39,197 nucleotides of DNA from Escherichia virus LS2, in the sequence record MN518894.2; one strand, written 5' to 3'. Shown in pieces: positions 1 to 36,285 of this stretch (its first letter is position 1; each line of letters begins with the position of its first letter). Both the position numbers and the translations under genes were made by a program. The notes under the pieces are model-generated. The model was not told where the DNA came from. It did no database searches and was given only the letters and a program-made list of their open reading frames with translations.

Positions 1-204
1 TCTCACAGTTCAAGAACCTCAAGTCTCCCCATAGGCCCTCTTTCAGTCCAGACAAAAGGCCCTACCCCAGTCTATCATAAGGCTGGACCGATGGTCAAGA
101 CGTTAGGTCAACGATAGGTCTAGGCTATGGCTGAGGTCAGGACGATAGGTAGGGACTATGGGTCTGCCTCTGAGTCCCTAGGTGTATCAGACATTACGTC
201 ACTA

Positions 205-301
205 CCTACAGTCTAACTACCTACAGTCATTGACTCCTGCCTGCCTACCTACAGTCACCGACCATCGGTAAAGCCATTACCTACAGTCAAAGACCTACAG
301 T
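205..301. repeat. Left-end short direct-repeat array: CCTACAGT at 205, 220, 248, 280 and 294
   Basis: Exact 8-mer occurs 5 times in 97 nt and again at 39137-39144 near the right end; analogous to the short repeats beside the terminal repeat of T7-type genomes. Confidence 0.6.
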
Positions 302-553
302 TAACCGACACAAAGCTATAGACTTAAGGTCTAATACATGTTAGTCAAAGACTATATCCTCTTACACTATGGGGCCGACGATAGCTTAATCAATATTATT
401 TAAGATTACCTATTGACTACAGGTCCAGACTATGGCTTAATAGCTTCCGTCAACACGACACGGCAACAACCGGATAGTGAAGACGCCGGGTCATCCCGGT
501 TAAGTAGACAACCTGATAAGTCATACGAACAACAGGCAGATGACAGAAAGTAG

Positions 554-583
554 TTGACAAGATGTACCGACTTAAAGTAGTAT
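554..583 (+). promoter_or_regulatory. Host sigma70-type early promoter (-35 TTGACA 554-559, 18-nt spacer, -10 TAGTAT 578-583)
   Basis: Consensus -35 and near-consensus -10 upstream of the early gene block, at the position of T7 A promoters. Confidence 0.55.
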
Positions 584-721
584 GTACCACATCAACACGA
601 AACAACGGTGACGACCAACACTGAAACGGTCTACCATGAAGTCGACTGGGAAAGGGAATGCTCTTTAACAATCTGGATAAACTCTTAATGTGCGCCGATA
701 GCGACTAACTACAGGGCCTTT

Positions 722-769
722 GAGTCTACATCTGAAGGCCCTGACTGATAGTCACTAACGGAACAGAGG
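722..769 (+). promoter_or_regulatory. Early-leader hairpin (perfect 9-bp stem cagggcctt / aaggccctg) followed by 20-bp box cctgactgatagtcactaac
   Basis: Perfect inverted repeat 722-730 / 745-753; the 20-bp box at 750-769 recurs exactly at 1409-1428; candidate RNase III processing or stability element. Confidence 0.45.
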
Positions 770-776
770 GACACTG

Positions 777-1022
777 ATGAAACATCTGAGCACCATTACC
801 AACCATAACGAAGTATTCGTGAACACTAAAGGTTATGCGTGGATTCAGCTTAAAGAGACGACAGGAGCGCGTCACCGTGTGGTAGTGCGCAAGGTCTCAA
901 GCAAGCCGTTCAGCAACTACAGCGTAGATACTGTTCGTATAGACAACGAGACCTACCTGATAGACTCGCAGATAACCGTGAGTCCTACAGCGAGCGCCTC
1001 AGCTCCTTATTTCGCTAACTGA
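777..1022 (+). CDS. Early hypothetical protein (81 aa)
   Basis: ORF with GAGGG Shine-Dalgarno 6 nt upstream, first gene after the host promoter; no homolog recognised. Confidence 0.6.
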   Translation: MKHLSTITNHNEVFVNTKGYAWIQLKETTGARHRVVVRKVSSKPFSNYSVDTVRIDNETYLIDSQITVSPTASASAPYFAN

Positions 1023-1095
1023 GAGTGCTTCACTACACGTCTGTACACTCATACCGGCCTCACTCATACTCACTAACAACCTAAGAGGATTCATT

Positions 1096-1374
1096 ATGAG
1101 ACTGAACAAAGCTACAGCAGAAGCCTTTCGCAAGGAGCTTGAATCAAGATTATTGTGTGGAGTGGCGGAAGGAGCCGCTCGGTATAAAGAGAATGGTCTA
1201 ACGTTCAAGCGCTTTATGTGGGATTGCTATCACGGAGTGGGCCATAAAAAGGCGCAGGATATAATCACCAGTAACAATGCGGAAGTGCAAGTGGTGGGAG
1301 GATATATGACTAACGTGAAGGATTCACACATAGAGACCATGCTCAAGAATGCACTTAAAGATGTAGCCTACTAG
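1096..1374 (+). CDS. Early hypothetical protein (92 aa)
   Basis: ORF with AAGAGGA Shine-Dalgarno 6 nt upstream; no homolog recognised. Confidence 0.6.
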   Translation: MRLNKATAEAFRKELESRLLCGVAEGAARYKENGLTFKRFMWDCYHGVGHKKAQDIITSNNAEVQVVGGYMTNVKDSHIETMLKNALKDVAY

Positions 1375-1384
1375 TGATTAACTA

Positions 1385-1428
1385 CAGGTCGTTAGACCTG
1401 ATAGCGGGCCTGACTGATAGTCACTAAC
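1385..1428 (+). promoter_or_regulatory. Second copy of the early-leader element (6-bp stem caggtc/gacctg plus box cctgactgatagtcactaac)
   Basis: Stem 1385-1390 / 1395-1400; box 1409-1428 identical to 750-769; lies just upstream of the ocr homolog. Confidence 0.4.
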
Positions 1429-1460
1429 AAACACACACACAACTTTGAGAGGATATAACT

Positions 1461-1796
1461 ATGGAACGTAACGCTAACGCATACTATGAGCTGCTGGCTG
1501 CAACCGTTGAGGCATTTATCGAGCGTATTCAGTACGACCACCTGACTCAAGATGACGACTACAGCGATGCGCTGCACGAGGTCGTAGGCGATCAGGTCCC
1601 GCACTATTACCACGAGATTTTCACGGTGATGGCTGCTGATGGTATAGACCACGAGTTCGAAGACTCTGGGCTGATGCCTGAAACCAAGGACGTAACGCGT
1701 ATCCTCCAAGCTCGCATCTATGAGGCGCTTTATAACGATGTGTCTAATAGCTTGGATGTAGTCTGGTTTGAGGATGAAGAGGACTGCGAGCGATGA
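1461..1796 (+). CDS. ocr: Ocr-like anti-restriction protein (DNA mimic), T7 gp0.3 homolog
   Basis: 111-aa acidic protein; the stretch [43 protein letters not shown] matches T7 Ocr as I recall it; GAGAGGA Shine-Dalgarno. Confidence 0.85.
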
Positions 1797-1963
1797 TAAC
1801 TTACGGTTTATGCCAGCACCACGTCACCAACGCCCGACTTATGGTCAAGACCGGGCAGTTAAACCACGATGCGACTATGCGTCACCTGAAAGCGGTCTAC
1901 GAGGGCCGCAAGCGTATACACGACAGCTTACACGATGAGGATAACCAACAATGCACCAGATAA
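1793..1963 (+). CDS. Small early ORF (56 aa), start overlaps the ocr stop (ATGA)
   Basis: ATGA start-stop overlap typical of T7 early small genes; below the 60-aa cutoff of the ORF track; no homolog recognised. Confidence 0.35.
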
Positions 1964-2076
1964 CTTATAGCAGCGAACAAGCGTTCTACGATGGGTGCTA
2001 CGAGCTGATGAAGCGCGATACTTGCTACGTGGCCAATCGTGAAAGCTTGACCATAACGCTGACAGGTGGATACTGA
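1951..2076 (+). CDS. Small early ORF (41 aa)
   Basis: ATG-initiated ORF following the previous small ORF; weak support. Confidence 0.25.
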   Translation: MHQITYSSEQAFYDGCYELMKRDTCYVANRESLTITLTGGY

Positions 2077-2234
2077 GTGATAGACGAGAGGTCATCGACT
2101 GATAGGTGGCCTCAAAGATTACCACTTACATTGATAGGAGTTAACTATGAAAATGGGTTACGGGGCAGCTTATCTCCGGTCATCTTTCTGATAGCTTGGG
2201 GACTTCTGGACGCAATCAAGCGAGGGTCATTCTA

Positions 2235-2432
2235 ATGAGCTGGGTACTTCTGGGTATCTTAGGCTATGGACTTATCGCATACGTGCTGGTGAGAGACATC
2301 AACAAGGCACGTAAAGTCTATAAATTCAACTATGTACGTATGGTCCGCTGGACTGTACGTCAACCTAACGGACGATTCCTGCGCAATTTAGCGAACGTCT
2401 GGGATATAGCAACTCTTGGGAGCAAACTGTAA
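2235..2432 (+). CDS. Small membrane-anchored early protein (65 aa from ATG 2235; the ORF track extends to a TTG at 2196)
   Basis: GAGGG 8 nt upstream of ATG 2235; N-terminal hydrophobic segment SWVLLGILGYGLIAYVLV. Confidence 0.5.
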   Translation: MSWVLLGILGYGLIAYVLVRDINKARKVYKFNYVRMVRWTVRQPNGRFLRNLANVWDIATLGSKL

Positions 2433-2758
2433 TGAACAAGTCATACGGGATTAATCTGGTACACTCTATGGACGCAGAAATGAACATGTTAAGCCTACTG
2501 GCTACCGGGTATCATCACGGAACGTCAAGTCACACCGCACGTCAACAGCAGGAGCGGGACCGTGTACTACAGGCGCGACTCCGGGCAGAGGGCCATAAGT
2601 CCGAACTGATGTGTCTGGCGTATGGTGGACGACCAATCACCGACGATGGTAAACTTCTGGTATCAGGCTGGACGGCGATAGACCAACGGTCAACCATCAA
2701 GCACACGACAAAAGGTGACTTCAGTCATCTTCACGCTAACCCACTGATATGCAAGTAA
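2432..2758 (+). CDS. Early hypothetical protein (108 aa) at the position of the T7 0.7 kinase, but not a kinase
   Basis: ORF overlapping the previous stop (TAATG); no kinase motifs. Confidence 0.55.
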   Translation: MNKSYGINLVHSMDAEMNMLSLLATGYHHGTSSHTARQQQERDRVLQARLRAEGHKSELMCLAYGGRPITDDGKLLVSGWTAIDQRSTIKHTTKGDFSHLHANPLICK

Positions 2759-2763
2759 TTATG

Positions 2764-2786
2764 ACTTAACTATCACTATAGGACTC
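2764..2786 (+). promoter_or_regulatory. Phage-RNAP promoter (acttaactatcactata G gactc, +1 near 2781) immediately upstream of the RNAP gene
   Basis: Matches the 11-member promoter family in this window. Confidence 0.7.
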
Positions 2787-2855
2787 AAGGTCTAAGACTC
2801 CAAGTGAAAGACCAAAGAGACTCTAAGTGAAAGACTAATAACAAGGACTTTAAGT

Positions 2856-5537
2856 ATGAGCGTCATCTCTATTGACAAACATGACTTCTCTGATGTGTCG
2901 AACGCCATTGAGCCGTTTAACCTGCTGGCTGACCACTACGGACAAGACCTTGCAGTCAAACAGCTTCAGCTTGAGCATGAGGCATATACAGAAGGCGAGC
3001 GACGTTTCATCAAGAACCTTGAGCGGCAGACTGAGCGCGGGGAACTGGCAGACAATCAGGTCGCCAAGCCTTTGATGCAGACTCTGGTCCCTAAGATTGC
3101 GCAAGCCGTCAGGGAGTGGCACGAAGGCCTAGACGGGAAGCTGTCAACCTCGCGTCCTAGCGTAGCGTTCACCATGTTGAGCACTGAAGAGAAGGCCGTT
3201 AAGGACCGCTCTATGCGCATCTCCTGTGAGTCCGCTGCGGTTATCATACTGAAGGTCATACTCTCCAAGCTGGTCAAGCCTGAAGGGATACCGATTACAC
3301 CGATGGCCTCCGCGATAGGTCGCACACTTGAGGACGAAATCCGCTTCGGTCGCATCCGTGACAAAGAGAAGGAGCACTTCAAGAAGGCGATAGCTGATAA
3401 CCTGAACAAGCGAGCTGGGGCATCCTACAAAAAAGCCTACATGCAAGCGGTCGAGGCGTCCATGCTGGAGCAAGGCCAACTGGAAGATGCATGGGGTACT
3501 TGGAGTCCTACAGAGGCTGTACACGTTGGCATCAAGATGCTCGAGATTGTCATCCAGTCAACACAACTGGTCGAGCTTAAGCGGTACGGTGCTGGTAATG
3601 CAGCGGCTGACGTAGAGATGGTCCACCTGTCAGACTTCTGGGTCAAGAAGATGGCACAACGAGGATTCAGCCTTGCGGGTATCGCTCCAGTCTACCAGCC
3701 TTGCGTCGTTCCACCTAAGCCGTGGACTGGTGTCGTAGGTGGTGGGTACTGGGCCAAAGGTCGCAGACCGTTACCATTGATTCGCTTAGGGTCTAAGTCT
3801 GCGGTAGCACGTTATGAAGACGTATACATGCCTGAAGTCTATGACGCTGTGAACATCATTCAGAATACACCTTGGAAAGTTAACAAGAAGGTATTGGACG
3901 TGGTGAACATGGTCGAGAAGCTGAACAACACGCCTATTAATGACATCCCTCAGATGGAACCGCTGAAGCCTGAGGACTATGCTGGTGAAACCGAGGAGGA
4001 ACTCAAGGCATGGAAGAAGACTGCTGCTGGTATCTATCGCCGCGAGAAGGCCAGACAGTCACGCAGATTGTCCATGAGTTTCATCGTTCACCAGGCCAAC
4101 AAGTTCTCACAGTTTAAGGCCATCTGGTTCCCGTACAACATGGATTGGCGAGGTCGTGTCTACGCTGTCCCGATGTTCAACCCTCAGGGTAACGACATGC
4201 AGAAGGGGCTCCTGACTCTGGCAGTCGGCAAGCCTATCGGGGCGGATGGTTTCAAATGGCTTAAAGTCCACGGTGCAAACTGTGCGGGTGTCGATAAAGT
4301 CACCTTCGATGAGCGCATCAAGTGGGTGGAAGACAACCACGAAAACATCATGGCTGCTGCTAAGGCACCGATGGATAGTATTGAGTGGTGGGGCAAGTTA
4401 GACTCTCCGTTCTGTTTCCTCGCGTTCTGCTTCGAGTATGCTGGCGTAATGCACCACGGCCTGTCTTACTCCTGCTCGCTGCCGATAGCGTTCGATGGGT
4501 CCTGCTCTGGTATTCAGCACTTCAGTGCGATGCTTCGTGACCACATCGGTGGACATGCAGTAAACCTGACGCCATCCGGCATGGTACAAGACATCTACCG
4601 CATTGTGTCTGACCGCATTGAGGAGGAGCTTAAAGTCCTTCTGATTAACGGTACTGACAACGAGATGGTCACTCACGAGGATAAGAAAACTGGTGAGATT
4701 ACCGAACGTATCAAGCTGGGGACACGAGAGCTGGCCCGTCAGTGGCTGACATACGGTATGTCACGCAAGGTCACTAAGCGTTCAGTCATGACTCTGGCAT
4801 ACGGGTCGAAAGAGTACGGATTCGCAGACCAAGTTTACGAGGACATCGTGATGCCAGCGATTGACTCAGGGTCTGGCGCTATGTTCACTGAACCAAGCCA
4901 AGCGTCTCGCTTCATGGCAAAGATGATTTGGGAAGCTGTGAGTGTGACAGTAGTTGCTGCGGTTGACGCGATGAAGTGGCTTCAAGGTGCTGCCAAGCTG
5001 CTGGCTGCTGAGGTGAAGGACAAGAAGACTGGGGAAATCCTGAAGCCTTGCCTTCCGGTACACTGGGTCACACCTGATGGGTTCCCGGTCTGGCAGGAAT
5101 ACCGCAAGAAGGATACCACTCGTCTGAACCTGATGTTCTTAGGGTCCTTCAACCTTCAACCTACGGTCAACAAAGGTACGAAGAAAGAGCTGGACAAGCA
5201 CAAGCAGGAGTCAGGCATTAGCCCCAACTTCGTCCACTCACAAGATGGTAGCCACCTGCGGAAGACTGTAGTCCACACTCACAGCAAGTATGGCGTGATG
5301 TCATTCGCAGTGATTCACGATAGCTTCGGGACCATCCCTGCTGACGCTGAGTATCTGTTCCGTGGTGTCCGTGAGACGATGGTCGAGACATACCGCGATA
5401 ACGATGTGCTGCTTGACTTCTACGAGCAGTTTGAATACCAGCTTCATGAAAGCCAGCGCGACAAGTTGCCTGAGCTTCCGAAGAAAGGTAAACTGAATAT
5501 CGAAGACATCTTGTCTTCAGACTTTGCATTCGCTTAA
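2856..5537 (+). CDS. gp1: Single-subunit DNA-dependent RNA polymerase (T7 gene 1 homolog, 893 aa)
   Basis: Co-linear similarity to T7 RNAP throughout, including C-terminal ...HSQDGSHLRKTVV...IHDSFGT...FAFA. Confidence 0.97.
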   Translation: MSVISIDKHDFSDVSNAIEPFNLLADHYGQDLAVKQLQLEHEAYTEGERRFIKNLERQTERGELADNQVAKPLMQTLVPKIAQAVREWHEGLDGKLSTSRPSVAFTMLSTEEKAVKDRSMRISCESAAVIILKVILSKLVKPEGIPITPMASAIGRTLEDEIRFGRIRDKEKEHFKKAIADNLNKRAGASYKKAYMQAVEASMLEQGQLEDAWGTWSPTEAVHVGIKMLEIVIQSTQLVELKRYGAGNAAADVEMVHLSDFWVKKMAQRGFSLAGIAPVYQPCVVPPKPWTGVVGGGYWAKGRRPLPLIRLGSKSAVARYEDVYMPEVYDAVNIIQNTPWKVNKKVLDVVNMVEKLNNTPINDIPQMEPLKPEDYAGETEEELKAWKKTAAGIYRREKARQSRRLSMSFIVHQANKFSQFKAIWFPYNMDWRGRVYAVPMFNPQGNDMQKGLLTLAVGKPIGADGFKWLKVHGANCAGVDKVTFDERIKWVEDNHENIMAAAKAPMDSIEWWGKLDSPFCFLAFCFEYAGVMHHGLSYSCSLPIAFDGSCSGIQHFSAMLRDHIGGHAVNLTPSGMVQDIYRIVSDRIEEELKVLLINGTDNEMVTHEDKKTGEITERIKLGTRELARQWLTYGMSRKVTKRSVMTLAYGSKEYGFADQVYEDIVMPAIDSGSGAMFTEPSQASRFMAKMIWEAVSVTVVAAVDAMKWLQGAAKLLAAEVKDKKTGEILKPCLPVHWVTPDGFPVWQEYRKKDTTRLNLMFLGSFNLQPTVNKGTKKELDKHKQESGISPNFVHSQDGSHLRKTVVHTHSKYGVMSFAVIHDSFGTIPADAEYLFRGVRETMVETYRDNDVLLDFYEQFEYQLHESQRDKLPELPKKGKLNIEDILSSDFAFA

Positions 5538-5549
5538 CAGGAGAGAGTT

Positions 5550-5765
5550 ATGAAATTTGCACACAAGCATGCTGGAGTTAAGGGCGGGACTCAAATCGTG
5601 ACCGTAACAGAACACAACGGCAATGGTCTGGTGAAGACCACGGTCATTCCTACCGAAATGTCAAAGCAGCTTAACGTCCCATTCAAGACCCTCGTCTATC
5701 TTGTGGAATCCAGCCACGAGAAATACCTGAAAGACGCAGTGACCAAGCTGGAGCAGACCAAATGA
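5550..5765 (+). CDS. Hypothetical protein (71 aa) between RNAP and the gene 1.1 promoter
   Basis: Good Shine-Dalgarno GGAGAG; natural codon usage; a degenerate second copy lies at 5843-6151. Confidence 0.65.
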   Translation: MKFAHKHAGVKGGTQIVTVTEHNGNGLVKTTVIPTEMSKQLNVPFKTLVYLVESSHEKYLKDAVTKLEQTK

Positions 5766-5842: not shown

Positions 5843-6151
5843 GAAATTTGCACACAAGCATGCTGGAGTTAAGGGCGGGACTCAAATGAACCATCCAGTG
5901 ACCGTAACATAATCTTGAGCTGGCTAACCGGGAACACACACGGCAATGGTCCAAGATTTAGAAGGCTCTGGTGAAGACCACGGTCATTCCTACCGAAATT
6001 AAGCGGATGGTCGGCCTGAAGTTCAAGGCTCTGTTCAAGACCCTCGTCTATCTTGTGGAATTCAAGACCGGGCCAGCCACGAGAAATACCAGAAAGACGC
6101 ACTTCACCACGAGTCGAGACAAGCTGGAGCAGACCAAATGACAGACCTACA
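5843..6151 (+). pseudogene. Block-mosaic degenerate copy of 5552-5775 (gene 5550-5765 plus the first codons of the next ORF)
   Basis: Nine blocks of 6-46 nt 100% identical to the upstream gene, separated by eight replaced blocks of 2-34 nt; ATG replaced by CCG; frame broken. Confidence 0.6.
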
Positions 6152-6343: not shown

Positions 6344-6395
6344 GTCGACGTACGTACGTACGTACGTACGTACGTACGTTGCATGCATGCATGCA
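6344..6395. repeat. GTCGAC followed by (ACGT)8 (6348-6379) and (TGCA)4 (6380-6395)
   Basis: Perfect tetranucleotide periodicity; alternating purine-pyrimidine, fully self-complementary; contains SalI, BsiWI, SnaBI, SphI and NsiI recognition sequences. Confidence 0.95.
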
Positions 6396-6417
6396 CTAAA
6401 CTATCACTATAGGATTA
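6395..6417 (+). promoter_or_regulatory. Phage-RNAP promoter (+1 near 6412), phi1.1 equivalent
   Basis: cactaaactatcactata G gatta. Confidence 0.8.
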
Positions 6418-6458
6418 GACTCAAGGTCATGACTCAAAGTCGTGGCCTTCATGATTAA
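6417..6458 (+). promoter_or_regulatory. RNase III-type processing site (R1.1-like)
   Basis: agactcaaggtc...gtggccttcatgatta resembles the T7 R1.1 site as I recall it; two further copies at 13113 and 36188. Confidence 0.6.
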
Positions 6459-6497
6459 CCGGTACGACTCAGGTTCAATTACCGGAGCTGTACACCA

Positions 6498-6671
6498 ATG
6501 TATCAGAACACTATCAACTTCGAGCGAATCCGTGAACGTCAGCAGACTGAAGATTATATTCCGAAGGGACGCAAGCTGAACAAGACCAAGCGTGGTGGAG
6601 GTGTCAAGGGTGCTTTCCGTAACGCTGAAGGCAAAGACGCTCTATGGTCAACCAAGAGAAATACTTCGTAG
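6498..6671 (+). CDS. gp1.1: gp1.1-like small basic protein (57 aa)
   Basis: Contains KGRKLNKTKR as in T7 gp1.1 (from memory); below the ORF-track length cutoff. Confidence 0.65.
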   Translation: MYQNTINFERIRERQQTEDYIPKGRKLNKTKRGGGVKGAFRNAEGKDALWSTKRNTS

Positions 6672-8152: not shown

Positions 8153-8192
8153 TAATGTCAACCCAGTGGTCATTAATGTCAACCCAGTGGTC
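8153..8192 (+). repeat. Tandem 19-bp direct repeat taatgtcaacccagtggtc x2 (8153-8171, 8174-8192)
   Basis: Exact duplicate; second copy forms the 5-prime arm of the terminator hairpin. Confidence 0.9.
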
Positions 8193-8235: not shown

Positions 8236-8258
8236 CCTAAGCTATCACTATAGGACAA
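8236..8258 (+). promoter_or_regulatory. Phage-RNAP promoter (+1 near 8253)
   Basis: ccctaagctatcactata G gacaa. Confidence 0.75.
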
Positions 8259-8935: not shown

Positions 8936-8953
8936 ATGGAAGGAGCGAGGTTT

Positions 8954-9112
8954 ATGCACATTGAGGAAAAGAAATACATCGTGGAGCTTGAGGGTCGCGT
9001 CCAGTCCTTCGAGGTTCCTGTGTACGCAAAGTCTCTTGAAGAGGCTACCATGAAGTCCCAAGAGTATGAGGACGCTGGGTTTGTGGTCGGACGGATTCGT
9101 CCTGAGACCTAA
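8954..9112 (+). CDS. gp2: gp2-like inhibitor of host RNA polymerase (52 aa)
   Basis: [14 protein letters not shown]...[10 protein letters not shown] resembles T7 gp2 (HSFEVPIYAETLDEA...AGFEVTRVRP); below the ORF-track cutoff. Confidence 0.7.
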
Positions 9113-10320: not shown

Positions 10321-10544
10321 TGACTCAAGAAGTTAAGGTCGTTCGTCAGCGTCTGACCATTGATAAGATCCCGGTAGGCTATGCGTTTATCATCCACGGT
10401 AAGCCTGGTGAAGTGTACGTGAAGATTAGTAACTCTCACGTCTTCAACCATAAGTTGCTACAGATGCATACCACGGATGCTAACCGTTTCCAACGTCATC
10501 TGAACCTAGTAGCCGTAGAGCTGGTGGTGTACGATGGTGAGTAA
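10320..10544 (+). CDS. Hypothetical protein (about 74 aa)
   Basis: ORF between endonuclease I and lysozyme; no homolog recognised. Confidence 0.5.
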   Translation: MTQEVKVVRQRLTIDKIPVGYAFIIHGKPGEVYVKISNSHVFNHKLLQMHTTDANRFQRHLNLVAVELVVYDGE

Positions 10545-10992
10545 GGTTCAGTTCAACCCACGGTCCCGGACTGACGCTATCTTCGTTCACTGTTCGGCTA
10601 CCAAGCCAGATATGGACATCGGGGTAGAGACCATCCGTATGTGGCACAAGCAGCAAGGCTGGCTGGACGTAGGCTACCACTTTATCATCAAGCGAGATGG
10701 CACTGTGGAAGAGGGTCGCCCGGTCAATGTCGTAGGGTCACACGTTAAGGACTGGAACTCAAAGTCCGTAGGCGTCTGCCTTGTAGGTGGAATTGACGCT
10801 AAGGGCAAGTTTAAAGCTAACTTCACTCCGGCCCAGATGCACTCCCTGCGCAACAAGCTGGCTGACCTGAAGGCCCTGTATCCTCAGGCAGAAATAAAAG
10901 CACACCATGACGTAGCACCTAAGGCGTGTCCAAGTTTCGACTTGCAACGCTGGCTGACTACCAACGAACTGGTCACTTCCGACCGAAGCTAA
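10534..10992 (+). CDS. gp3.5: N-acetylmuramoyl-L-alanine amidase / lysozyme (T7 gp3.5 homolog)
   Basis: AIFVHCSATKP...WHKQQGWLDVGYHFIIKRDGTVEEGR...KACPSFDL matches T7 lysozyme. Confidence 0.95.
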   Translation: MVSKVQFNPRSRTDAIFVHCSATKPDMDIGVETIRMWHKQQGWLDVGYHFIIKRDGTVEEGRPVNVVGSHVKDWNSKSVGVCLVGGIDAKGKFKANFTPAQMHSLRNKLADLKALYPQAEIKAHHDVAPKACPSFDLQRWLTTNELVTSDRS

Positions 10993-12980: not shown

Positions 12981-13109
12981 ATGTACAAATGGTGGAGTGA
13001 TGAAGCAACCTGCCTGTCCAACATTCTGGGAGACCAAAGGTTCGACTCTAAGGCATGGAAGAGAGCTAACCGGAAGTTTATGTATCACTTCTTGCGTACA
13101 GACTTCTAG
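12981..13109 (+). CDS. Small ORF (42 aa) between primase and DNA polymerase
   Basis: ATG-initiated ORF, weak Shine-Dalgarno; position of T7 4.x genes. Confidence 0.3.
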   Translation: MYKWWSDEATCLSNILGDQRFDSKAWKRANRKFMYHFLRTDF

Positions 13110-13112
13110 GTC

Positions 13113-13152
13113 TAGACTCAAGGTCATTCACATCGAGTGGCCTTTATGATTA
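13113..13152 (+). promoter_or_regulatory. RNase III-type processing site
   Basis: tagactcaaggtcattcacatcgagtggcctttatgatta; near-identical to the copies at 6417 and 36188. Confidence 0.6.
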
Positions 13153-13173
13153 GACTAAACCGGAGGATTAACC

Positions 13174-17016: not shown

Positions 17017-17039
17017 ACTAAACTATCACTATAGGGACT
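17017..17039 (+). promoter_or_regulatory. Phage-RNAP promoter (+1 near 17034), phi6.5 equivalent
   Basis: cactaaactatcactata G ggact. Confidence 0.8.
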
Positions 17040-25531: not shown

Positions 25532-25554
25532 CCTTAACTATCACTATAGGGACT
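25532..25554 (+). promoter_or_regulatory. Phage-RNAP promoter (+1 near 25549), phi13 equivalent, bracketed by a 12-bp inverted repeat
   Basis: accttaactatcactata G ggact; inverted repeat aatggcctatag (25515-25526) / ctataggccatt (25553-25564). Confidence 0.75.
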
Positions 25555-32876: not shown

Positions 32877-35576
32877 ATGTCCACGATTACACAATTCCCT
32901 TCAGGAAACACTCGTTACAGGATTGAGTTCGACTACCTAGCCAGAACGTTTGTTGTTGTTACGCTGGTGAATAGCTCTAACCCTGCCCTGAACCGTGTAC
33001 TGGAAGTTGGTCGAGATTACCGATTCCTTAATCCAACGATGATTGAGATGTTGGTTGACCAATCAGGTTTCGACATCGTTCGTATTCACCGTCAGACTGG
33101 AACTGACTTAGTGGTAGACTTCAGGAATGGCTCAGTGTTGACAGCTAGTGACCTGACCAATGCAGAGCTTCAGGCTATCCATATTGCAGAAGAAGGTCGA
33201 GACCAAACTGTTGACTTAGCGAAGGAATATGCCGATGCTGCTGGTAACTCTGCTGGCAACGCTAAGGATAGCGAGGACGAAGCACGACGAATCGCTGAGA
33301 GTATCAAGGCATCTGGTCTGCGAGGCTATATTACCCGTCGCTCCTTCGAGAAAGGCTTCAACGTTACAATATGGAACGAGGTACTGCTATGGGAAGAGGA
33401 TGGTGATTATTACCGATGGGATGGTGGACTGCCAAAAAACGTACCTGTTGGTTCAACTCCTGAAACGTCTGGCGGCGTTGGTTTGGGTGCGTGGGTTAGT
33501 GTTGGTGATGCGTCATTGCGCGCCCGGCCTGCCGAAAAACGTGCCGGTGGGCAGCACCCCGGAAACCAGCGGCGGCGTTGGCGCGATAACGGCGATCCGC
33601 GCGGCTGGGGCGCGATTGGCGATGGCGTGACCGATGATACCCTGGCGCTGCAGGCGTGCTTTGATACCGCGACCTGCGATATTGATCTGGGCGGCAAAAC
33701 CTATCTGGTGCGCAAAAACCCGACCCTGGCGGCGACCTATCCGAACGAACCGGATTTTAGCGATGGCAGCTATAACTATAGCCCGTGCCTGGCGCTGGTG
33801 GGCAAAAAAAACATTAAAATTCATAACGGCGCGCTGATTGTGGAAACCCATGGCCTGGATGCGATTAGCCTGATTGCGTGCGAACATGTGACCGTGGATC
33901 TGACCATTAAAGGCCCGGGCATTTTTCCGGCGATTGATACCCCGACCGGCTATGCGGAAAAAGGCGAAGCGAACTTTGGCTATGATAGCAGCCTGCTGCT
34001 GGCGCCGAACAACGCGCTGGATACCAGCGCGTATACCGGCGGCGCGTATGCGGGCGTGGCGGGCCAGTTTCCGAAATATAACGCGGATGGCAGCCAGGCG
34101 AGCGGCTGGCAGAGCACCTGGGGCACCTTTCTGGGCGGCTATATTGGCAGCTGGGCGTGCGGCGTGAAAGTGCAGCGCGCGTGCCGCGGCATTCTGATTA
34201 ACGATTGCGATATTAGCGGCTTTAACTTTGGCGCGGTGGGCATTGGCATTCGCAACACCGCGGCGGCGTATGGCGCGAGCGATTATACCACCGATGCGGA
34301 TATTCCGGATGGCGTGATGGTGATTAACACCCGCATTCGCAAATGCTATAGCGCGGGCATTTATGTGCTGAGCGGCTATCGCCTGAACTATATGGCGAAC
34401 AACATTGAAGATATTGGCCATCCGAACGGCAACGATGCGCTGAACGCGAGCTATGATCCGGGCTATGGCATTACCCATGGCCGCAACCGCCGCATTCGCA
34501 ACGTGACCATTACCGAAAACATGATTCGCAACTGCCGCCGCAAATGCATTGATTTTCATGGCGGCGGCCAGGCGATTATTGCGAAAAACCATTGCCTGGA
34601 ACATGGCGTGGTGGGCATTTATGCGAAATGCGGCCCGGGCTGGAGCCCGAACTATGAACCGTATAACCTGATTATTGCGGATAACTATGTGCGCAGCCGC
34701 GATGTGCCGGCGAGCGAAACCACCGGCCCGCTGATTGGCGCGAAATATACCCGCAGCATTGATGTGGGCGGCGGCGGCGAAGCGACCCAGGCGACCTATC
34801 CGGATCCGTTTGTGAAAATTCATAACAACTATTGCGAACTGCGCGCGTATGATGGCGTGGCGATTAGCACCGGCGCGGGCGATGATAACTATAACGTGTT
34901 TATGGATATTGATGTGAGCCATAACACCGTGGTGCTGAAATGCAACACCCCGAACAACTTTGCGGAAGGCATTGGCATTAACGCGGGCGCGGCGAGCAAC
35001 AAAGTGTATCGCGGCCAGCGCGTGAAACTGATTGGCAACAGCATTAAACAGCTGAACACCCTGAACCTGACCTATCGCAGCGCGGGCTATAAAATTCAGG
35101 GCATTCCGAAAAGCCTGATTATGCATGGCAACACCCTGGATCTGAACGTGAGCACCCAGAGCTGCAAACTGTGCGATTTTGTGATTGATAGCCGCATTAA
35201 CTATAGCTTTGAAGGCAACCAGGTGCTGAGCTTTAGCGCGCGCGATAGCGCGACCCTGCAGGAAGTGTGGCTGTATGATAACATGAAAATTACCCGCCCG
35301 GCGGCGGCGGCGGCGGCGACCATTAGCGGCAACCTGTTTCGCGGCATTTGGCAGGTGTGCATTGCGGGCACCGGCGATGCGTTTGGCGCGAAACAGACCC
35401 AGTTTGCGAGCACCGGCAGCGGCGGCACCGGCTTTGATGTGGTGCGCAGCGCGACCACCGGCTTTATTGCGACCTTTGGCATTGGCGCGAGCGGCCTGAT
35501 TGTGCCGGCGGTGACCCAGGAAAGCCAGGTGCAGATTAACCTGAAACTGGTGAGCAGCCTGGATAGCGTGGCGTAA
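32877..35576 (+). CDS. gp17: Tailspike / tail fiber (gp17 position): native T7-like N-terminal anchor (to about 33528) fused to a recoded pectate-lyase-like beta-helix (depolymerase-type) domain
   Basis: N-terminus resembles the T7 gp17 tail-binding domain (FDYLARTFVVVTL...); body contains WGAIGDGVTDDTLALQACF; single uninterrupted 899-codon ORF. Confidence 0.9.
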   Translation: MSTITQFPSGNTRYRIEFDYLARTFVVVTLVNSSNPALNRVLEVGRDYRFLNPTMIEMLVDQSGFDIVRIHRQTGTDLVVDFRNGSVLTASDLTNAELQAIHIAEEGRDQTVDLAKEYADAAGNSAGNAKDSEDEARRIAESIKASGLRGYITRRSFEKGFNVTIWNEVLLWEEDGDYYRWDGGLPKNVPVGSTPETSGGVGLGAWVSVGDASLRARPAEKRAGGQHPGNQRRRWRDNGDPRGWGAIGDGVTDDTLALQACFDTATCDIDLGGKTYLVRKNPTLAATYPNEPDFSDGSYNYSPCLALVGKKNIKIHNGALIVETHGLDAISLIACEHVTVDLTIKGPGIFPAIDTPTGYAEKGEANFGYDSSLLLAPNNALDTSAYTGGAYAGVAGQFPKYNADGSQASGWQSTWGTFLGGYIGSWACGVKVQRACRGILINDCDISGFNFGAVGIGIRNTAAAYGASDYTTDADIPDGVMVINTRIRKCYSAGIYVLSGYRLNYMANNIEDIGHPNGNDALNASYDPGYGITHGRNRRIRNVTITENMIRNCRRKCIDFHGGGQAIIAKNHCLEHGVVGIYAKCGPGWSPNYEPYNLIIADNYVRSRDVPASETTGPLIGAKYTRSIDVGGGGEATQATYPDPFVKIHNNYCELRAYDGVAISTGAGDDNYNVFMDIDVSHNTVVLKCNTPNNFAEGIGINAGAASNKVYRGQRVKLIGNSIKQLNTLNLTYRSAGYKIQGIPKSLIMHGNTLDLNVSTQSCKLCDFVIDSRINYSFEGNQVLSFSARDSATLQEVWLYDNMKITRPAAAAAATISGNLFRGIWQVCIAGTGDAFGAKQTQFASTGSGGTGFDVVRSATTGFIATFGIGASGLIVPAVTQESQVQINLKLVSSLDSVA

Positions 35577-35924: not shown

Positions 35925-36184
35925 CGCAGATGGACTTAGAGAAGTTCCTCTTGATGCTTGATACTGAGCGTGCTCGACTTATGCTGCAAGACTTGCGGGA
36001 TGACACTAAGCGTTCACCTCAGCTCTACAACGCCATTGAGAAGCTGCTTGCTCGTCACAACTTTGTGTTAAGCAAGGTGTCTGTTGACGAGAAGACGCTC
36101 GCTGATATGGAGGCCCTGAACGCAGAGTACGATAAGGTGCTCTCCGCTACGGAAGATAATGACACCGGGTATGGTGTTCAATAA
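35921..36184 (+). CDS. gp18: Terminase small subunit (T7 gp18 homolog)
   Basis: FLLMLDTERARLMLQDLRDDTKRSPQLYNAIEKLLARH matches T7 gp18. Confidence 0.9.
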   Translation: MTQMDLEKFLLMLDTERARLMLQDLRDDTKRSPQLYNAIEKLLARHNFVLSKVSVDEKTLADMEALNAEYDKVLSATEDNDTGYGVQ

Positions 36185-36187
36185 GCG

Positions 36188-36230
36188 TTAGACTCAAGGT
36201 CATTACTGTATGTAGTGGCCTTTATGGTTA
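36188..36230 (+). promoter_or_regulatory. RNase III-type processing site (R18.5-like)
   Basis: ttagactcaaggtcattactgtatgtagtggcctttatggtta. Confidence 0.6.
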
Positions 36231-36285
36231 ACACTAACTAGTGGAGGAGACTCTACGTGCAATCTGATAAACCGGGAGGGCAACT

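What the first reader, a model, noticed from the sequence alone, without database searches (positions are those of the whole stretch)
2764..2855. Phage-RNAP promoter directly upstream of the RNAP gene, with a duplicated 19-20 bp leader motif
A near-consensus phage promoter (+1 about 2781) lies 75 nt upstream of the RNAP start codon. In T7, gene 1 is transcribed only by host RNAP; a phage promoter here would create a positive-feedback autogene. The leader contains two copies of agactc(c/t)aagtgaaagac (2793-2811 and 2817-2835) that could be a regulatory or processing element tempering it.
Basis: partly seen in the sequence, partly recalled or inferred. Interest (0 to 1): 0.45.

Follow-up and report, generated by a model that had tools for sequence, protein, structure and literature searches.

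The report
Phage promoter before its polymerase gene
This K1F-type (T7-like) coliphage has one of its own polymerase-specific promoters directly in front of its RNA polymerase gene. The trait is real, conserved across the whole genus and already annotated in relatives, and it probably lets the enzyme boost its own synthesis.

Summary
The window is a complete Kayfunavirus (K1F-like) genome. An exact cognate promoter (TTAACTATCACTATAGGA, +1 = 2781) lies 75 nt before the RNA polymerase ATG (2856), and the leader holds an 18-21 nt tandem repeat (2795-2815 / 2818-2838).

It is not unusual for this lineage. All 21 fetched relatives with at least 78% RNAP identity have it, and the 100-bp region is in 218 GenBank phage records. 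GenBank already annotates it in EcoDS1 ('phi') and CR8 ('predicted promoter'). The promoter changes with each lineage's own specificity (three classes), so it is a selected, working cognate promoter.

T7-, T3- and Berlin-like relatives instead carry an RNase III-type hairpin at this position; K11-like relatives carry a stable hairpin that my model did not score.

The leader evolves about 10 times more slowly than neighbouring synonymous sites. It is A/T-rich and unstructured, and it does not match a model of T7-group RNase III hairpins. Its 3' 44 nt, including the ribosome-binding block, are homologous to the T7 phi1.1B-to-gene 1.1 leader, which belongs to T7's primary replication origin.

Positive feedback from a phage promoter before the polymerase gene has been proposed for LUZ100 and phiA318.

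Verdict: a real, functional-looking autogene promoter, already known at annotation level. Interest is low to moderate.

The parts
2764..2783 (+). Cognate phage-RNAP promoter, positions -17 to +3; transcription start G at 2781
   Evidence: Exact 18-mer at 2766-2783, one of 10 + strand copies. Invariant in 17 main-group relatives (pi = 0). The specificity region changes with lineage. The homologous site is annotated 'phi' in EcoDS1.
2781..2855 (+). 75-nt 5' leader of the phage-made gene 1 mRNA: A/T-rich and unstructured
   Evidence: GC 0.37 against 0.508 for the genome. MFE -15.2 kcal/mol, z +0.68. Pi 0.0135 against 0.139 at gene 1 third codon positions. No Rfam match.
2782..2792 (+). GACTCAAGGTC box at +2 to +12. 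The same box forms the 5' side of canonical RNase III-type hairpins after other promoters (for example 6418).
   Evidence: Here it is not followed by the GGCCTT partner, and the model does not score the site.
2795..2815 (+). Leader repeat, copy 1 (AGACTCCAAGTGAAAGACCAA)
2818..2838 (+). Leader repeat, copy 2 (AGACTCTAAGTGAAAGACTAA). It is partly complementary to the promoter core.
   Evidence: In read-through RNA, CUCUAAGUGA pairs with UCACUAUAGG. Most relatives read AGACTTTAAGTG here.
2844..2858 (+). Ribosome-binding block AGGACTTTAAGTATG (Shine-Dalgarno AAGGA at 2843-2847, ATG at 2856), identical to the T7 gene 1.1 block
   Evidence: In IMG/VR, this block with a phage promoter 75-86 nt upstream precedes only Kayfunavirus-type gene 1 (13 loci) or T7-type gene 1.1 (8 loci).
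2856..5537 (+). Gene 1, single-subunit RNA polymerase (893 aa)
   Evidence: Pfam RNA_pol 4.7e-106 and RPOL_N 2e-15. 99.8% identical to the LS3 protein.
2073..2129 (+). Nearest upstream RNase III-type hairpin, about 730 nt before gene 1
   Evidence: Covariance model R1, 35.9 bits, E 2.6e-7.
6397..6465 (+). Next phage promoter (+1 = 6412) with an R1.1-type hairpin (6408-6465), ahead of the gene 1.1 homologue (6498-6671)
   Evidence: Fold z -3.88. Model 45 bits. Pfam Phage_1_1.
10534..10992 (+). Gene 3.5 homologue (amidase/lysozyme), the presumed brake on the phage RNAP
   Evidence: Pfam Amidase_2 2e-16. The braking role is inferred from T7 lysozyme biology.
8936..9112 (+). Gene 2 homologue, inhibitor of host RNA polymerase
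   Evidence: Pfam RNA_pol_inhib 3.9e-20.

Best explanation
The site is a working promoter for the phage's own single-subunit RNA polymerase, placed directly before that polymerase's gene.

Proposed sequence of events:
1. Early in infection, host RNA polymerase reads from the left-end sigma-70 promoters through the small early genes into gene 1. No terminator intervenes. This makes the first polymerase.
2. That polymerase then starts at G2781 and makes a second, shorter gene 1 mRNA with a 75-nt A/T-rich, unstructured leader and a strong ribosome-binding block (AAGGA, 8 nt, ATG). The transcript continues into genes 1.1-1.3 and beyond.
3. This gives positive feedback and keeps gene 1 transcribed after gp2 shuts off the host enzyme.

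The promoter has the GGA start typical of this phage's class II-type promoters rather than GGGA. I infer that feedback is limited by the lysozyme-type gp3.5 and by competition from the late promoters.

The promoter-plus-leader module takes the place of the RNase III-type hairpin that T7-, T3- and Berlin-like relatives have before gene 1. It is a relative of the T7 phi1.1B-to-gene 1.1 module. The tandem repeat is part of an array of four RGACTYNAAG(G/T) units, and I take it mainly as a translation-initiation/leader element.

Shown here: presence, conservation, matching changes with lineage specificity, and homology of the leader. Inferred: that the promoter fires in vivo, the feedback itself, the brake, and the role of the repeat.
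For: - Exact cognate promoter, one of 10 + strand copies against 0.02 expected. It is identical from -15 to +2 to the promoters at 25534 and 38592.
- It is present 75-102 nt before gene 1 in 21 of 21 loci with at least 78% RNAP identity. No promoter core lies within 400 nt of gene 1 in 58 of 58 loci at 58-64% identity.
- The copy before gene 1 follows each lineage's own specificity: ACTATCACTATAGG in the main group, CCCTCACTATAGG in the GW1-like group, and GGTACACTATAGG in CR8. Each matches the other promoters of the same genome.
- Among 17 main-group sequences the promoter has pi = 0 and the leader pi = 0.0135, against 0.139 and 0.109 at third codon positions of the flanking genes.
- No sigma-70-like site and no convincing terminator lie between the early region and gene 1.
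- The downstream ORF is the RNAP, and gp2 and gp3.5 homologues are present.
- The leader is unstructured, 63% A+T, and its 3' 44 nt align to the T7 phi1.1B leader (score 39 against 14.6 +/- 2.5; 0 of 500 shuffles reach it). The 15-nt ribosome-binding block is shared only with T7-type gene 1.1.
- T7-, T3- and Berlin-like relatives have an RNase III-type hairpin 20-40 nt before gene 1. Kayfunavirus and CR8 do not.
- Independent annotators marked the site as a promoter in EcoDS1, CR8 and PE3-1.
- The same arrangement with proposed positive feedback is published for LUZ100, where the start site was mapped (PMC10134795), and suggested for phiA318 (PMC4099482).
Against: - There are no transcript-mapping or in vitro data for any Kayfunavirus. 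I found none in the searchable literature, and the K1F genome paper could not be read.
- Promoter strength is unknown. In the Ro45lw-like subgroup the gene 1 copy deviates from consensus at -2 (CACTAAAGG), so it may be weak there.
- The constraint on the whole leader is stronger than a simple 5' UTR needs. It therefore probably has an extra role that I have not identified.
- The brake by gp3.5 is inferred from T7 only.
Confidence: 0.8

Rival explanations
1. Replication origin, not exclusive of the main explanation. The promoter plus its A/T-rich leader is the phage's transcription-primed origin of DNA replication. It would be the counterpart of the T7 primary origin (phi1.1A/phi1.1B plus an A/T-rich stretch) or of the T7 secondary origin at phiOL. 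The repeated units would be unwinding or priming elements.
For: - The leader's 3' 44 nt and ribosome-binding block are homologous to the T7 phi1.1B-to-gene 1.1 leader.
- phi1.1A and phi1.1B are the T7 primary origins, and every T7 origin needs a T7 promoter (PMC8373140).
- The leader is 63% A+T against 49% for the genome.
- At the Kayfunavirus gene 1.1 position there is only one promoter with an R1.1-type hairpin and no phi1.1B-type module.
- The window has no phiOL-type promoter.
- Nucleotide-level constraint covers the whole leader.
Against: - No replication data exist for this genus.
- GC skew is uninformative.
- The leader is less A/T-rich than the T7 one (GC 0.37 against 0.28).
- The homology can be explained by a shared translation-initiation region alone.
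Confidence: 0.25
2. Read-through hairpin. In host-made read-through RNA the promoter core (UCACUAUAGG) pairs with repeat copy 2 (CUCUAAGUGA), and GGUCU pairs with AGACC of copy 1. This forms a roughly 60-nt interrupted hairpin that phage-made RNA, which starts at +1, cannot form. It would be a non-canonical RNase III or other processing or stability site replacing T7 R1, and it would give host-made and phage-made gene 1 mRNAs different fates.
For: - The same hairpin is the minimum-energy fold in four lineages, with z from -1.1 to -2.7. RNAalifold recovers it.
- Variable sites of the main group fall in the apical loop (2800/2801), switch G-C to G-U (2823), or add a pair (L013, 2787).
- The Ro45lw-like group has a perfect 11-nt inverted repeat, TATCACTAAAG / CTTTAGTGATA. 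It includes that group's unusual -2 A, which is found only in the gene 1 promoter.
- The order 'lower stem, ACUC, AAGGUC' matches canonical sites.
Against: - No pair shows a change on both sides, and the covariation term is +1.18.
- The z-scores are marginal.
- The covariance model of 46 canonical hairpins gives no hit here even at E up to 10 with filters off.
- CR8 lacks this pairing and has a different local hairpin.
- The idea was formed after seeing the fold.
Confidence: 0.15
3. Operator. The tandem repeats are binding sites for a phage or host protein that represses or attenuates the promoter.
For: - There are two 21-nt copies 23 bp apart just downstream of +1.
- They are under strong nucleotide-level constraint.
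- A repressor acting on a phage promoter before the RNAP gene has been proposed for LUZ100 (MarR-like; PMC10134795).
Against: - Spacing and copy structure are not kept in the Ro45lw-like group or in CR8.
- The exact motif occurs nowhere else in the genome.
- I found no candidate DNA-binding regulator. The upstream ORF has no Pfam match.
- These phages are strictly lytic T7 types.
Confidence: 0.08
4. Chance. The promoter match is fortuitous or a decaying relic with no function.
For: There is no direct experimental evidence of activity.
Against: - 0.02 matches are expected by chance.
- The site is invariant in the main group while synonymous sites differ by about 14%.
- It was re-tuned to three different specificities.
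Confidence: 0.02

Closest known systems
'phi' promoter before gene 1 of coliphage EcoDS1 (NC_011042, 2244-2266), and the 'predicted promoter' before gene 1 of Citrobacter phage CR8 (HG818824, 3356-3378)
   Same: This is the homologous site. It has the same position relative to gene 0.38 and gene 1. EcoDS1 has the same sequence class, and the leader is nearly identical.
   Different: Nothing of substance differs for EcoDS1. CR8 has another promoter specificity, an 87-nt leader and a different repeat layout. Neither record gives a name or a function, and PE3-1 labels the site 'host RNAP promoter'.
phi1 of Pseudomonas phage LUZ100 (PMC10134795)
   Same: A phage-specific promoter lies directly upstream of the phage RNAP gene. 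The authors propose that host read-through makes the first RNAP, which then amplifies its own transcription.
   Different: LUZ100 is a distant, possibly temperate T7-like phage. Its promoter start was mapped experimentally, and a MarR-like repressor is proposed to control it. No such regulator is seen here.
phi-A8 of Vibrio phage phiA318 (PMC4099482) and the PHIRE-predicted promoter before the RNAP gene of Pseudomonas phage UNO-SLW4
   Same: A predicted cognate promoter lies immediately upstream of the RNAP gene. Autoregulation is suggested for phiA318.
   Different: These are other genera and promoter classes. In phiA318 the promoter also precedes a protein kinase gene. Both are predictions only.
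T7 phi1.1B promoter with its leader to gene 1.1 (part of the T7 primary replication origin)
   Same: A class II-type promoter (GGA start) is followed by a 75-86-nt A/T-rich leader with repeated CTTAAG-like units and the identical block AGGACTTTAAGTATG.
   Different: It drives gene 1.1, not gene 1. In T7 it follows phi1.1A and the R1.1 hairpin. The T7 leader lacks the 21-nt tandem repeat. Origin function is shown for T7 only.
T7 phiOL
   Same: A phage promoter upstream of gene 1 on the same strand, followed by an A/T-rich stretch with ACTTAAAG units.
   Different: It lies 2.7-3.0 kb upstream, before the host promoters and all early genes. This window has no left-end copy.
T7 R1 RNase III site
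   Same: It occupies the same intergenic position, just before gene 1, in T7-, T3- and Berlin-like relatives.
   Different: It is a stable hairpin that matches the model (E 7e-5 to 8e-9). The Kayfunavirus leader does not match.
Engineered T7 autogene (Dubendorff and Studier 1991; from my own knowledge, with the concept used in PMC6395690)
   Same: The RNAP gene is under its own cognate promoter, which gives positive feedback.
   Different: It is a laboratory construct that needs lac repressor and lysozyme to be tolerated. Here the arrangement is natural and sits in a lytic genome.

Membership tests
T7-group phage-RNAP promoters, K1F specificity class | A conserved motif of about 18-23 bp repeated many times on the transcribed strand of one genome | tested here: met
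   10 + strand copies against 0.02 expected.
T7-group phage-RNAP promoters, K1F specificity class | CACTATAG core with initiation at G(+1)G(+2) | tested here: met
   CACTATAGGA at 2774-2783.
T7-group phage-RNAP promoters, K1F specificity class | The specificity region (-8 to -12) matches the genome's other promoters and changes together with them between lineages | tested here: met
   Three specificity classes, and the gene 1 copy matches its own genome each time.
T7-group phage-RNAP promoters, K1F specificity class | Specific initiation by the cognate RNAP in vitro or in vivo | not testable with these tools
   I found no data for Kayfunavirus.
Natural autogene (RNAP gene under its own promoter) | A cognate promoter upstream of the RNAP ORF on the same strand, with no terminator between | tested here: met
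   +1 at 2781 and ATG at 2856, with no terminator-like site in between. The ORF is the RNAP.
Natural autogene (RNAP gene under its own promoter) | Gene 1 transcripts that start at the phage promoter during infection, and an RNAP level that depends on it | not testable with these tools
   This needs 5'-end mapping and promoter mutants.
T7-group RNase III processing hairpins | Match to the family's sequence and structure: 9-bp lower stem, ACUC/UAUGAU internal loop, AAGGUC...GGCCUU upper stem | tested here: not met
   Model R1 (46 sequences, 13 of 19 pairs with compensatory changes) finds six + strand sites in the window (three below E 1e-9, and 697-759 only marginally at E 0.44). It gives no hit in 2700-2900 at E up to 10 with filters off.
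T7-group RNase III processing hairpins | A hairpin more stable than shuffled sequence | tested here: inconclusive
   The phage-made leader has z +0.68. Read-through RNA that includes the promoter has z -1.1 to -2.7 in four lineages, without covariation.
T7-type replication origin (phage promoter plus A/T-rich region) | A phage promoter followed by an A/T-rich stretch | tested here: met
   Leader GC 0.37 against 0.508 for the genome.
T7-type replication origin (phage promoter plus A/T-rich region) | Sequence relationship to a proven origin | tested here: met
   The 3' 44 nt align to the T7 phi1.1B leader, and 0 of 500 shuffles reach the score. phi1.1A and phi1.1B are the T7 primary origins (PMC8373140).
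T7-type replication origin (phage promoter plus A/T-rich region) | DNA synthesis initiates there | not testable with these tools
   GC skew gives no signal.
Any Rfam RNA family | Match to a curated covariance model | tested here: not met
   No match at E up to 1 in 2500-3100.

The most novel reading that the evidence does not exclude
The promoter-plus-leader module does more than drive gene 1. One reading is that it is also the phage's transcription-primed replication origin: a phi1.1B-type origin module moved in front of the polymerase gene. The other reading is that the complementarity between the promoter core and repeat copy 2 forms a hairpin only in host-made read-through RNA, so that early (host-made) and later (phage-made) polymerase mRNAs are processed or translated differently.
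Probability: 0.25. Interest if true: 0.5.

Novelty: already known. Interest (0 to 1): 0.2.

Why it matters
The feature marks a real difference in regulatory wiring between K1F-type phages and the T7 textbook scheme. The polymerase gene can be transcribed by its own product from a dedicated promoter, where T7-, T3- and Berlin-like relatives have an RNase III-type hairpin.

This matters for models of T7-like gene expression, for engineering K1F-type therapeutic phages, and for using K1F polymerase/promoter pairs in synthetic circuits. However, the site has been visible in public annotations since the EcoDS1 record, and the feedback idea is published for other T7-like phages.

What is new here is modest:
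- The site follows lineage-specific promoter specificity.
- The leader is under strong constraint.
- The leader is related to the T7 phi1.1B/gene 1.1 module.

Tried and rejected
- **Rfam:** a scan of 2500-3100 found nothing.
- **RNase III site in the leader:** rejected as a canonical site. The model of 46 T7-group hairpins scores six other sites but not this one, and the phage-made leader has z +0.68.
- **Covariation for the read-through hairpin:** RNAalifold finds the hairpin but no pair changed on both sides.
- **Host sigma-70 promoter, as PE3-1 labels it:** no sigma-70-like site lies in 2700-2860. The sequence is the phage consensus.
- **GC skew to find an origin:** the skew rises monotonically and is uninformative.
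- **15-mer scan of IMG/VR:** mostly chance hits in unrelated contigs. Only the 22 with an upstream promoter core were useful.
- **Tiny GTG-started ORFs in the repeats (8 and 3 codons):** considered and dropped. They have no Shine-Dalgarno sequence and simply follow from the repeat.
- **Literature:** the K1F genome paper and the Chen and Schneider promoter paper are not held. Searches for Kayfunavirus transcript mapping found nothing. The CR44b papers concern gp2 only.
- **Primase sites:** I looked by eye for T7-type primase sites in the leader and found only weak ones. I did not pursue this.

Full report
**What the window is.** The 39,197-bp window is a complete T7-group phage genome of the genus Kayfunavirus (K1F-like). 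Bases 2300-3400 are 99.8% identical to Escherichia virus ECG4 and match 211 phage records, nearly all Kayfunavirus. The ORF at 2856-5537 is the single-subunit RNA polymerase (Pfam RNA_pol 4.7e-106). Homologues of ocr, gp1.1, gp2 (host RNAP inhibitor) and gp3.5 (amidase/lysozyme) are present.

**Checking the observation.**
- The 18-mer TTAACTATCACTATAGGA lies at 2766-2783. With up to 3 mismatches it has 10 + strand copies, against 0.02 expected. The core CACTATAG occurs 9 times against 0.96 expected.
- The copy is identical from -15 to +2 to those at 25534 and 38592. It starts GGA, like the copies at 6397, 8238, 9110, 19840 and 32810. The copies at 17019, 20852, 25534 and 38592 start GGG.
- The repeat is real. 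The 18-nt copies are at 2795-2812 and 2818-2835. Extended, they are 21 nt at 90% identity. No dinucleotide-preserving shuffle of the leader reaches 18 nt (mean 8.4, maximum 15, n = 2000).
- The two copies belong to four related units, RGACTYNAAG(G/T), starting at about 2781, 2795, 2818 and 2845. The first overlaps +1 and the last overlaps the Shine-Dalgarno sequence and start codon.

**How common it is.**
- The 100-bp intergenic region is found in 218 phage records, 172 of them at 95% identity or more. By comparison, 219 records have an RNAP at least 80% identical.
- Of 79 IMG/VR loci encoding a relative of the RNAP, all 21 with at least 78% identity have a promoter core 82-109 nt before the gene, which puts the start site 75-102 nt upstream. 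None of the 58 with 58-64% identity (T7-, T3-, Berlin- and K11-like) has one within 400 nt.
- GenBank already annotates the site: 'phi' promoter in EcoDS1 at 2244-2266, before gene 1 at 2336; 'predicted promoter' in Citrobacter phage CR8; and a promoter in PE3-1, labelled 'host RNAP promoter', which I take to be a mislabel.
- A 2026 paper on another Kayfunavirus lists the same repeat at the 3' end of the gene before the RNAP gene (PMC13298934).
For this genus the feature is the rule.

**Is it a working promoter?** The strongest argument is that it changes with the polymerase.
- The main group uses ACTATCACTATAGG.
- The Cronobacter GW1-like group (RNAP 87-88% identical) uses CCCTCACTATAGG.
- CR8 (78% identical) uses GGTACACTATAGG.
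- In each genome the copy before gene 1 has that genome's own specificity region.
- Among 17 main-group sequences the promoter is invariant. Third codon positions of gene 1 and of the upstream ORF differ by 0.139 and 0.109 per site.
- No sigma-70-like site lies there, and no convincing terminator separates the early region from gene 1.

I conclude that the phage RNAP can transcribe its own gene, after host RNAP has made the first copies by read-through from the left-end promoters. That it fires in vivo is inferred. I found no transcript mapping for this genus.

**What it replaces.**
- I built a covariance model from 46 non-redundant T7-group hairpins of the RNase III-site type (9-bp lower stem, ACUC/UAUGAU internal loop, AAGGUC...GGCCUU upper stem). 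13 of its 19 pairs show compensatory changes.
- In the window it finds six + strand sites: 697-759 (marginal, E 0.44), 1370-1428, 2073-2129, 6408-6465, 13105-13160 and 36181-36238. It finds nothing in 2700-2900 even at E up to 10 with filters off.
- In T7-, T3- and Berlin-like loci it finds a site ending 20-40 nt before the gene 1 ATG: L040, L038, L031, L037, L044 and L028.
- K11-like loci gave no model hit at E up to 0.01, although one folded example has a stable hairpin there (z -2.46).
- In K1F, EcoDS1, the Ro45lw-like group and CR8 the nearest upstream site is about 730-810 nt away, and in the GW1-like locus L020 about 1.9 kb away.
- So the Kayfunavirus/Caroctavirus lineage has a promoter plus leader where these other Studiervirinae have the R1-type hairpin.
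- T7-type genomes are not free of phage promoters upstream of gene 1. phiOL lies 2.7-3.0 kb upstream, and other lineages have cognate promoters 0.6-2 kb upstream. The window has no copy to the left of 2766.

**The leader.**
- It is 63% A+T (genome 49%).
- As made by the phage RNAP it folds no better than shuffles (z +0.68).
- It has no Rfam match.
- It is strongly constrained: pi 0.0135, about 10 times lower than at neighbouring synonymous sites. The few variable sites are 2800/2801 and 2823.
- Its 3' 44 nt align to the leader between T7 phi1.1B and gene 1.1 (score 39 against 14.6 +/- 2.5; 0 of 500 shuffles). No other T7 promoter leader in the locus compared reaches a comparable score; the next best, phiOL, scores 22, which 12 of 500 shuffles reach.
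- The block AGGACTTTAAGTATG is identical in the two. In IMG/VR, this block with a phage promoter 75-86 nt upstream precedes only Kayfunavirus-type gene 1 (13 loci) or T7-type gene 1.1 (8 loci).
- At the Kayfunavirus gene 1.1 there is a single promoter with an R1.1-type hairpin and no phi1.1B-type module.
- Repeated CTTAAG / ACTT(T/A)AAG units also follow T7 phiOL and the first post-gene-1 promoter of K11-like phages.
- ACUUUAA is part of the T7 gene 10 'epsilon' translational enhancer (UUAACUUUAA; PMC9590205).

I therefore read the leader mainly as an unstructured translation-initiation region of a conserved module type.

**Alternative readings.**
- *Origin.* phi1.1A and phi1.1B are the T7 primary replication origins, and every T7 origin needs a T7 promoter (PMC8373140). 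The homology therefore leaves open that this module is also an origin. GC skew cannot test this.
- *Read-through hairpin.* When the promoter sequence is included as RNA, as in host read-through transcripts, the promoter core pairs with repeat copy 2, and GGUCU pairs with AGACC of copy 1. The same roughly 60-nt interrupted hairpin is the best fold in four lineages (z -1.1 to -2.7). Main-group variable sites fall in its loop or keep pairing. The Ro45lw-like group has a perfect 11-nt inverted repeat that includes its unusual -2 A. Against this, there is no two-sided covariation, the RNase III model does not score it, and CR8 differs. I rate it as a lead, not a finding.
- *Operator.* A repressor-binding role for the repeats is unlikely. 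Spacing is not conserved across lineages, and no regulator is apparent.

**Comparison with what is known.**
- The same architecture is described for Pseudomonas phage LUZ100. Its phage-specific phi1 directly upstream of the RNAP gene was mapped by ONT-cappable-seq, and a positive feedback loop was proposed (PMC10134795).
- It was suggested for Vibrio phage phiA318 (PMC4099482).
- It is predicted in Pseudomonas phage UNO-SLW4.
- The engineered T7 autogene is the laboratory analogue (my own knowledge).
- By analogy with T7, the GGA-start promoter should be of the class that lysozyme (gp3.5) shuts down first, which would limit the feedback. This step is inference.

**Verdict.** The feature is already known at annotation level and the concept is published for other phages. 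The modest additions here are the match to lineage specificity, the replacement of the R1-type hairpin, the strong constraint on the leader, and the leader's relationship to the T7 phi1.1B/gene 1.1 module. Interest 0.2.

Noticed in passing
window 5843-6151: This stretch is a mosaic. At least eight collinear blocks (12-45 nt, 93-100% identical) copied from ORF 5550-5765 are interleaved with sequence that matches ECG4. Relative to ECG4 the blocks are length-preserving replacements (108 substitutions, no indels), while the rest of the first 7 kb is nearly identical. It looks like gene conversion, an assembly artefact or an engineered sequence.
   Followed up: partly
window 6348-6395: A perfect (ACGT)x8 followed by (TGCA)x4 lies immediately before the phage promoter at 6397. 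It is also present in the ECG4 GenBank record, where an annotated CDS runs through it. This is very unusual for a natural phage sequence.
   Followed up: partly
window 697-759, 1370-1428, 2073-2129, 6408-6465, 13105-13160, 36181-36238: Six RNase III-type hairpins were found with a covariance model built here from T7-group sites. 697-759 is marginal (E 0.44). They mark likely mRNA processing sites. The one at 13105 follows a decayed promoter that is intact in Ro45lw-like relatives.
   Followed up: partly
window 1-2765: There is no phage promoter of the phiOL type at the left end, unlike T7-, T3- and K11-like genomes, which have one 2.5-3 kb upstream of gene 1.
   Followed up: partly
L014 2407-2417 / 2461-2471 (Ro45lw-like Kayfunavirus group): A perfect 11-nt inverted repeat lies between the gene 1 promoter core (TATCACTAAAG, with an unusual A at -2) and its leader (CTTTAGTGATA). 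The -2 A is found only in the gene 1 promoter of these genomes.
   Followed up: partly
window 8153-8192: A perfect tandem duplication of a 21-nt unit (TAATGTCAACCCAGTGGTCAT, 1.9 copies) lies shortly before the promoter at 8238.
   Followed up: no
window 33500-35500: GC rises to 0.56-0.59 inside the 899-aa ORF 32877-35576, which by position is the tail fibre/spike gene. A 537-aa antisense ORF (33513-35126) also lies there. This suggests a horizontally acquired receptor-binding domain.
   Followed up: no
KJ748011.1 (PE3-1) 2874-2896: The GenBank record labels the homologous phage promoter 'host RNAP promoter', which looks like an annotation error.
   Followed up: yes
L043 about 200-410 (1337-1547 nt upstream of gene 1): A T7-like relative has 11 tandem copies of a 21-nt unit containing AGGAACCACTGAG in its early region.
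   Followed up: no
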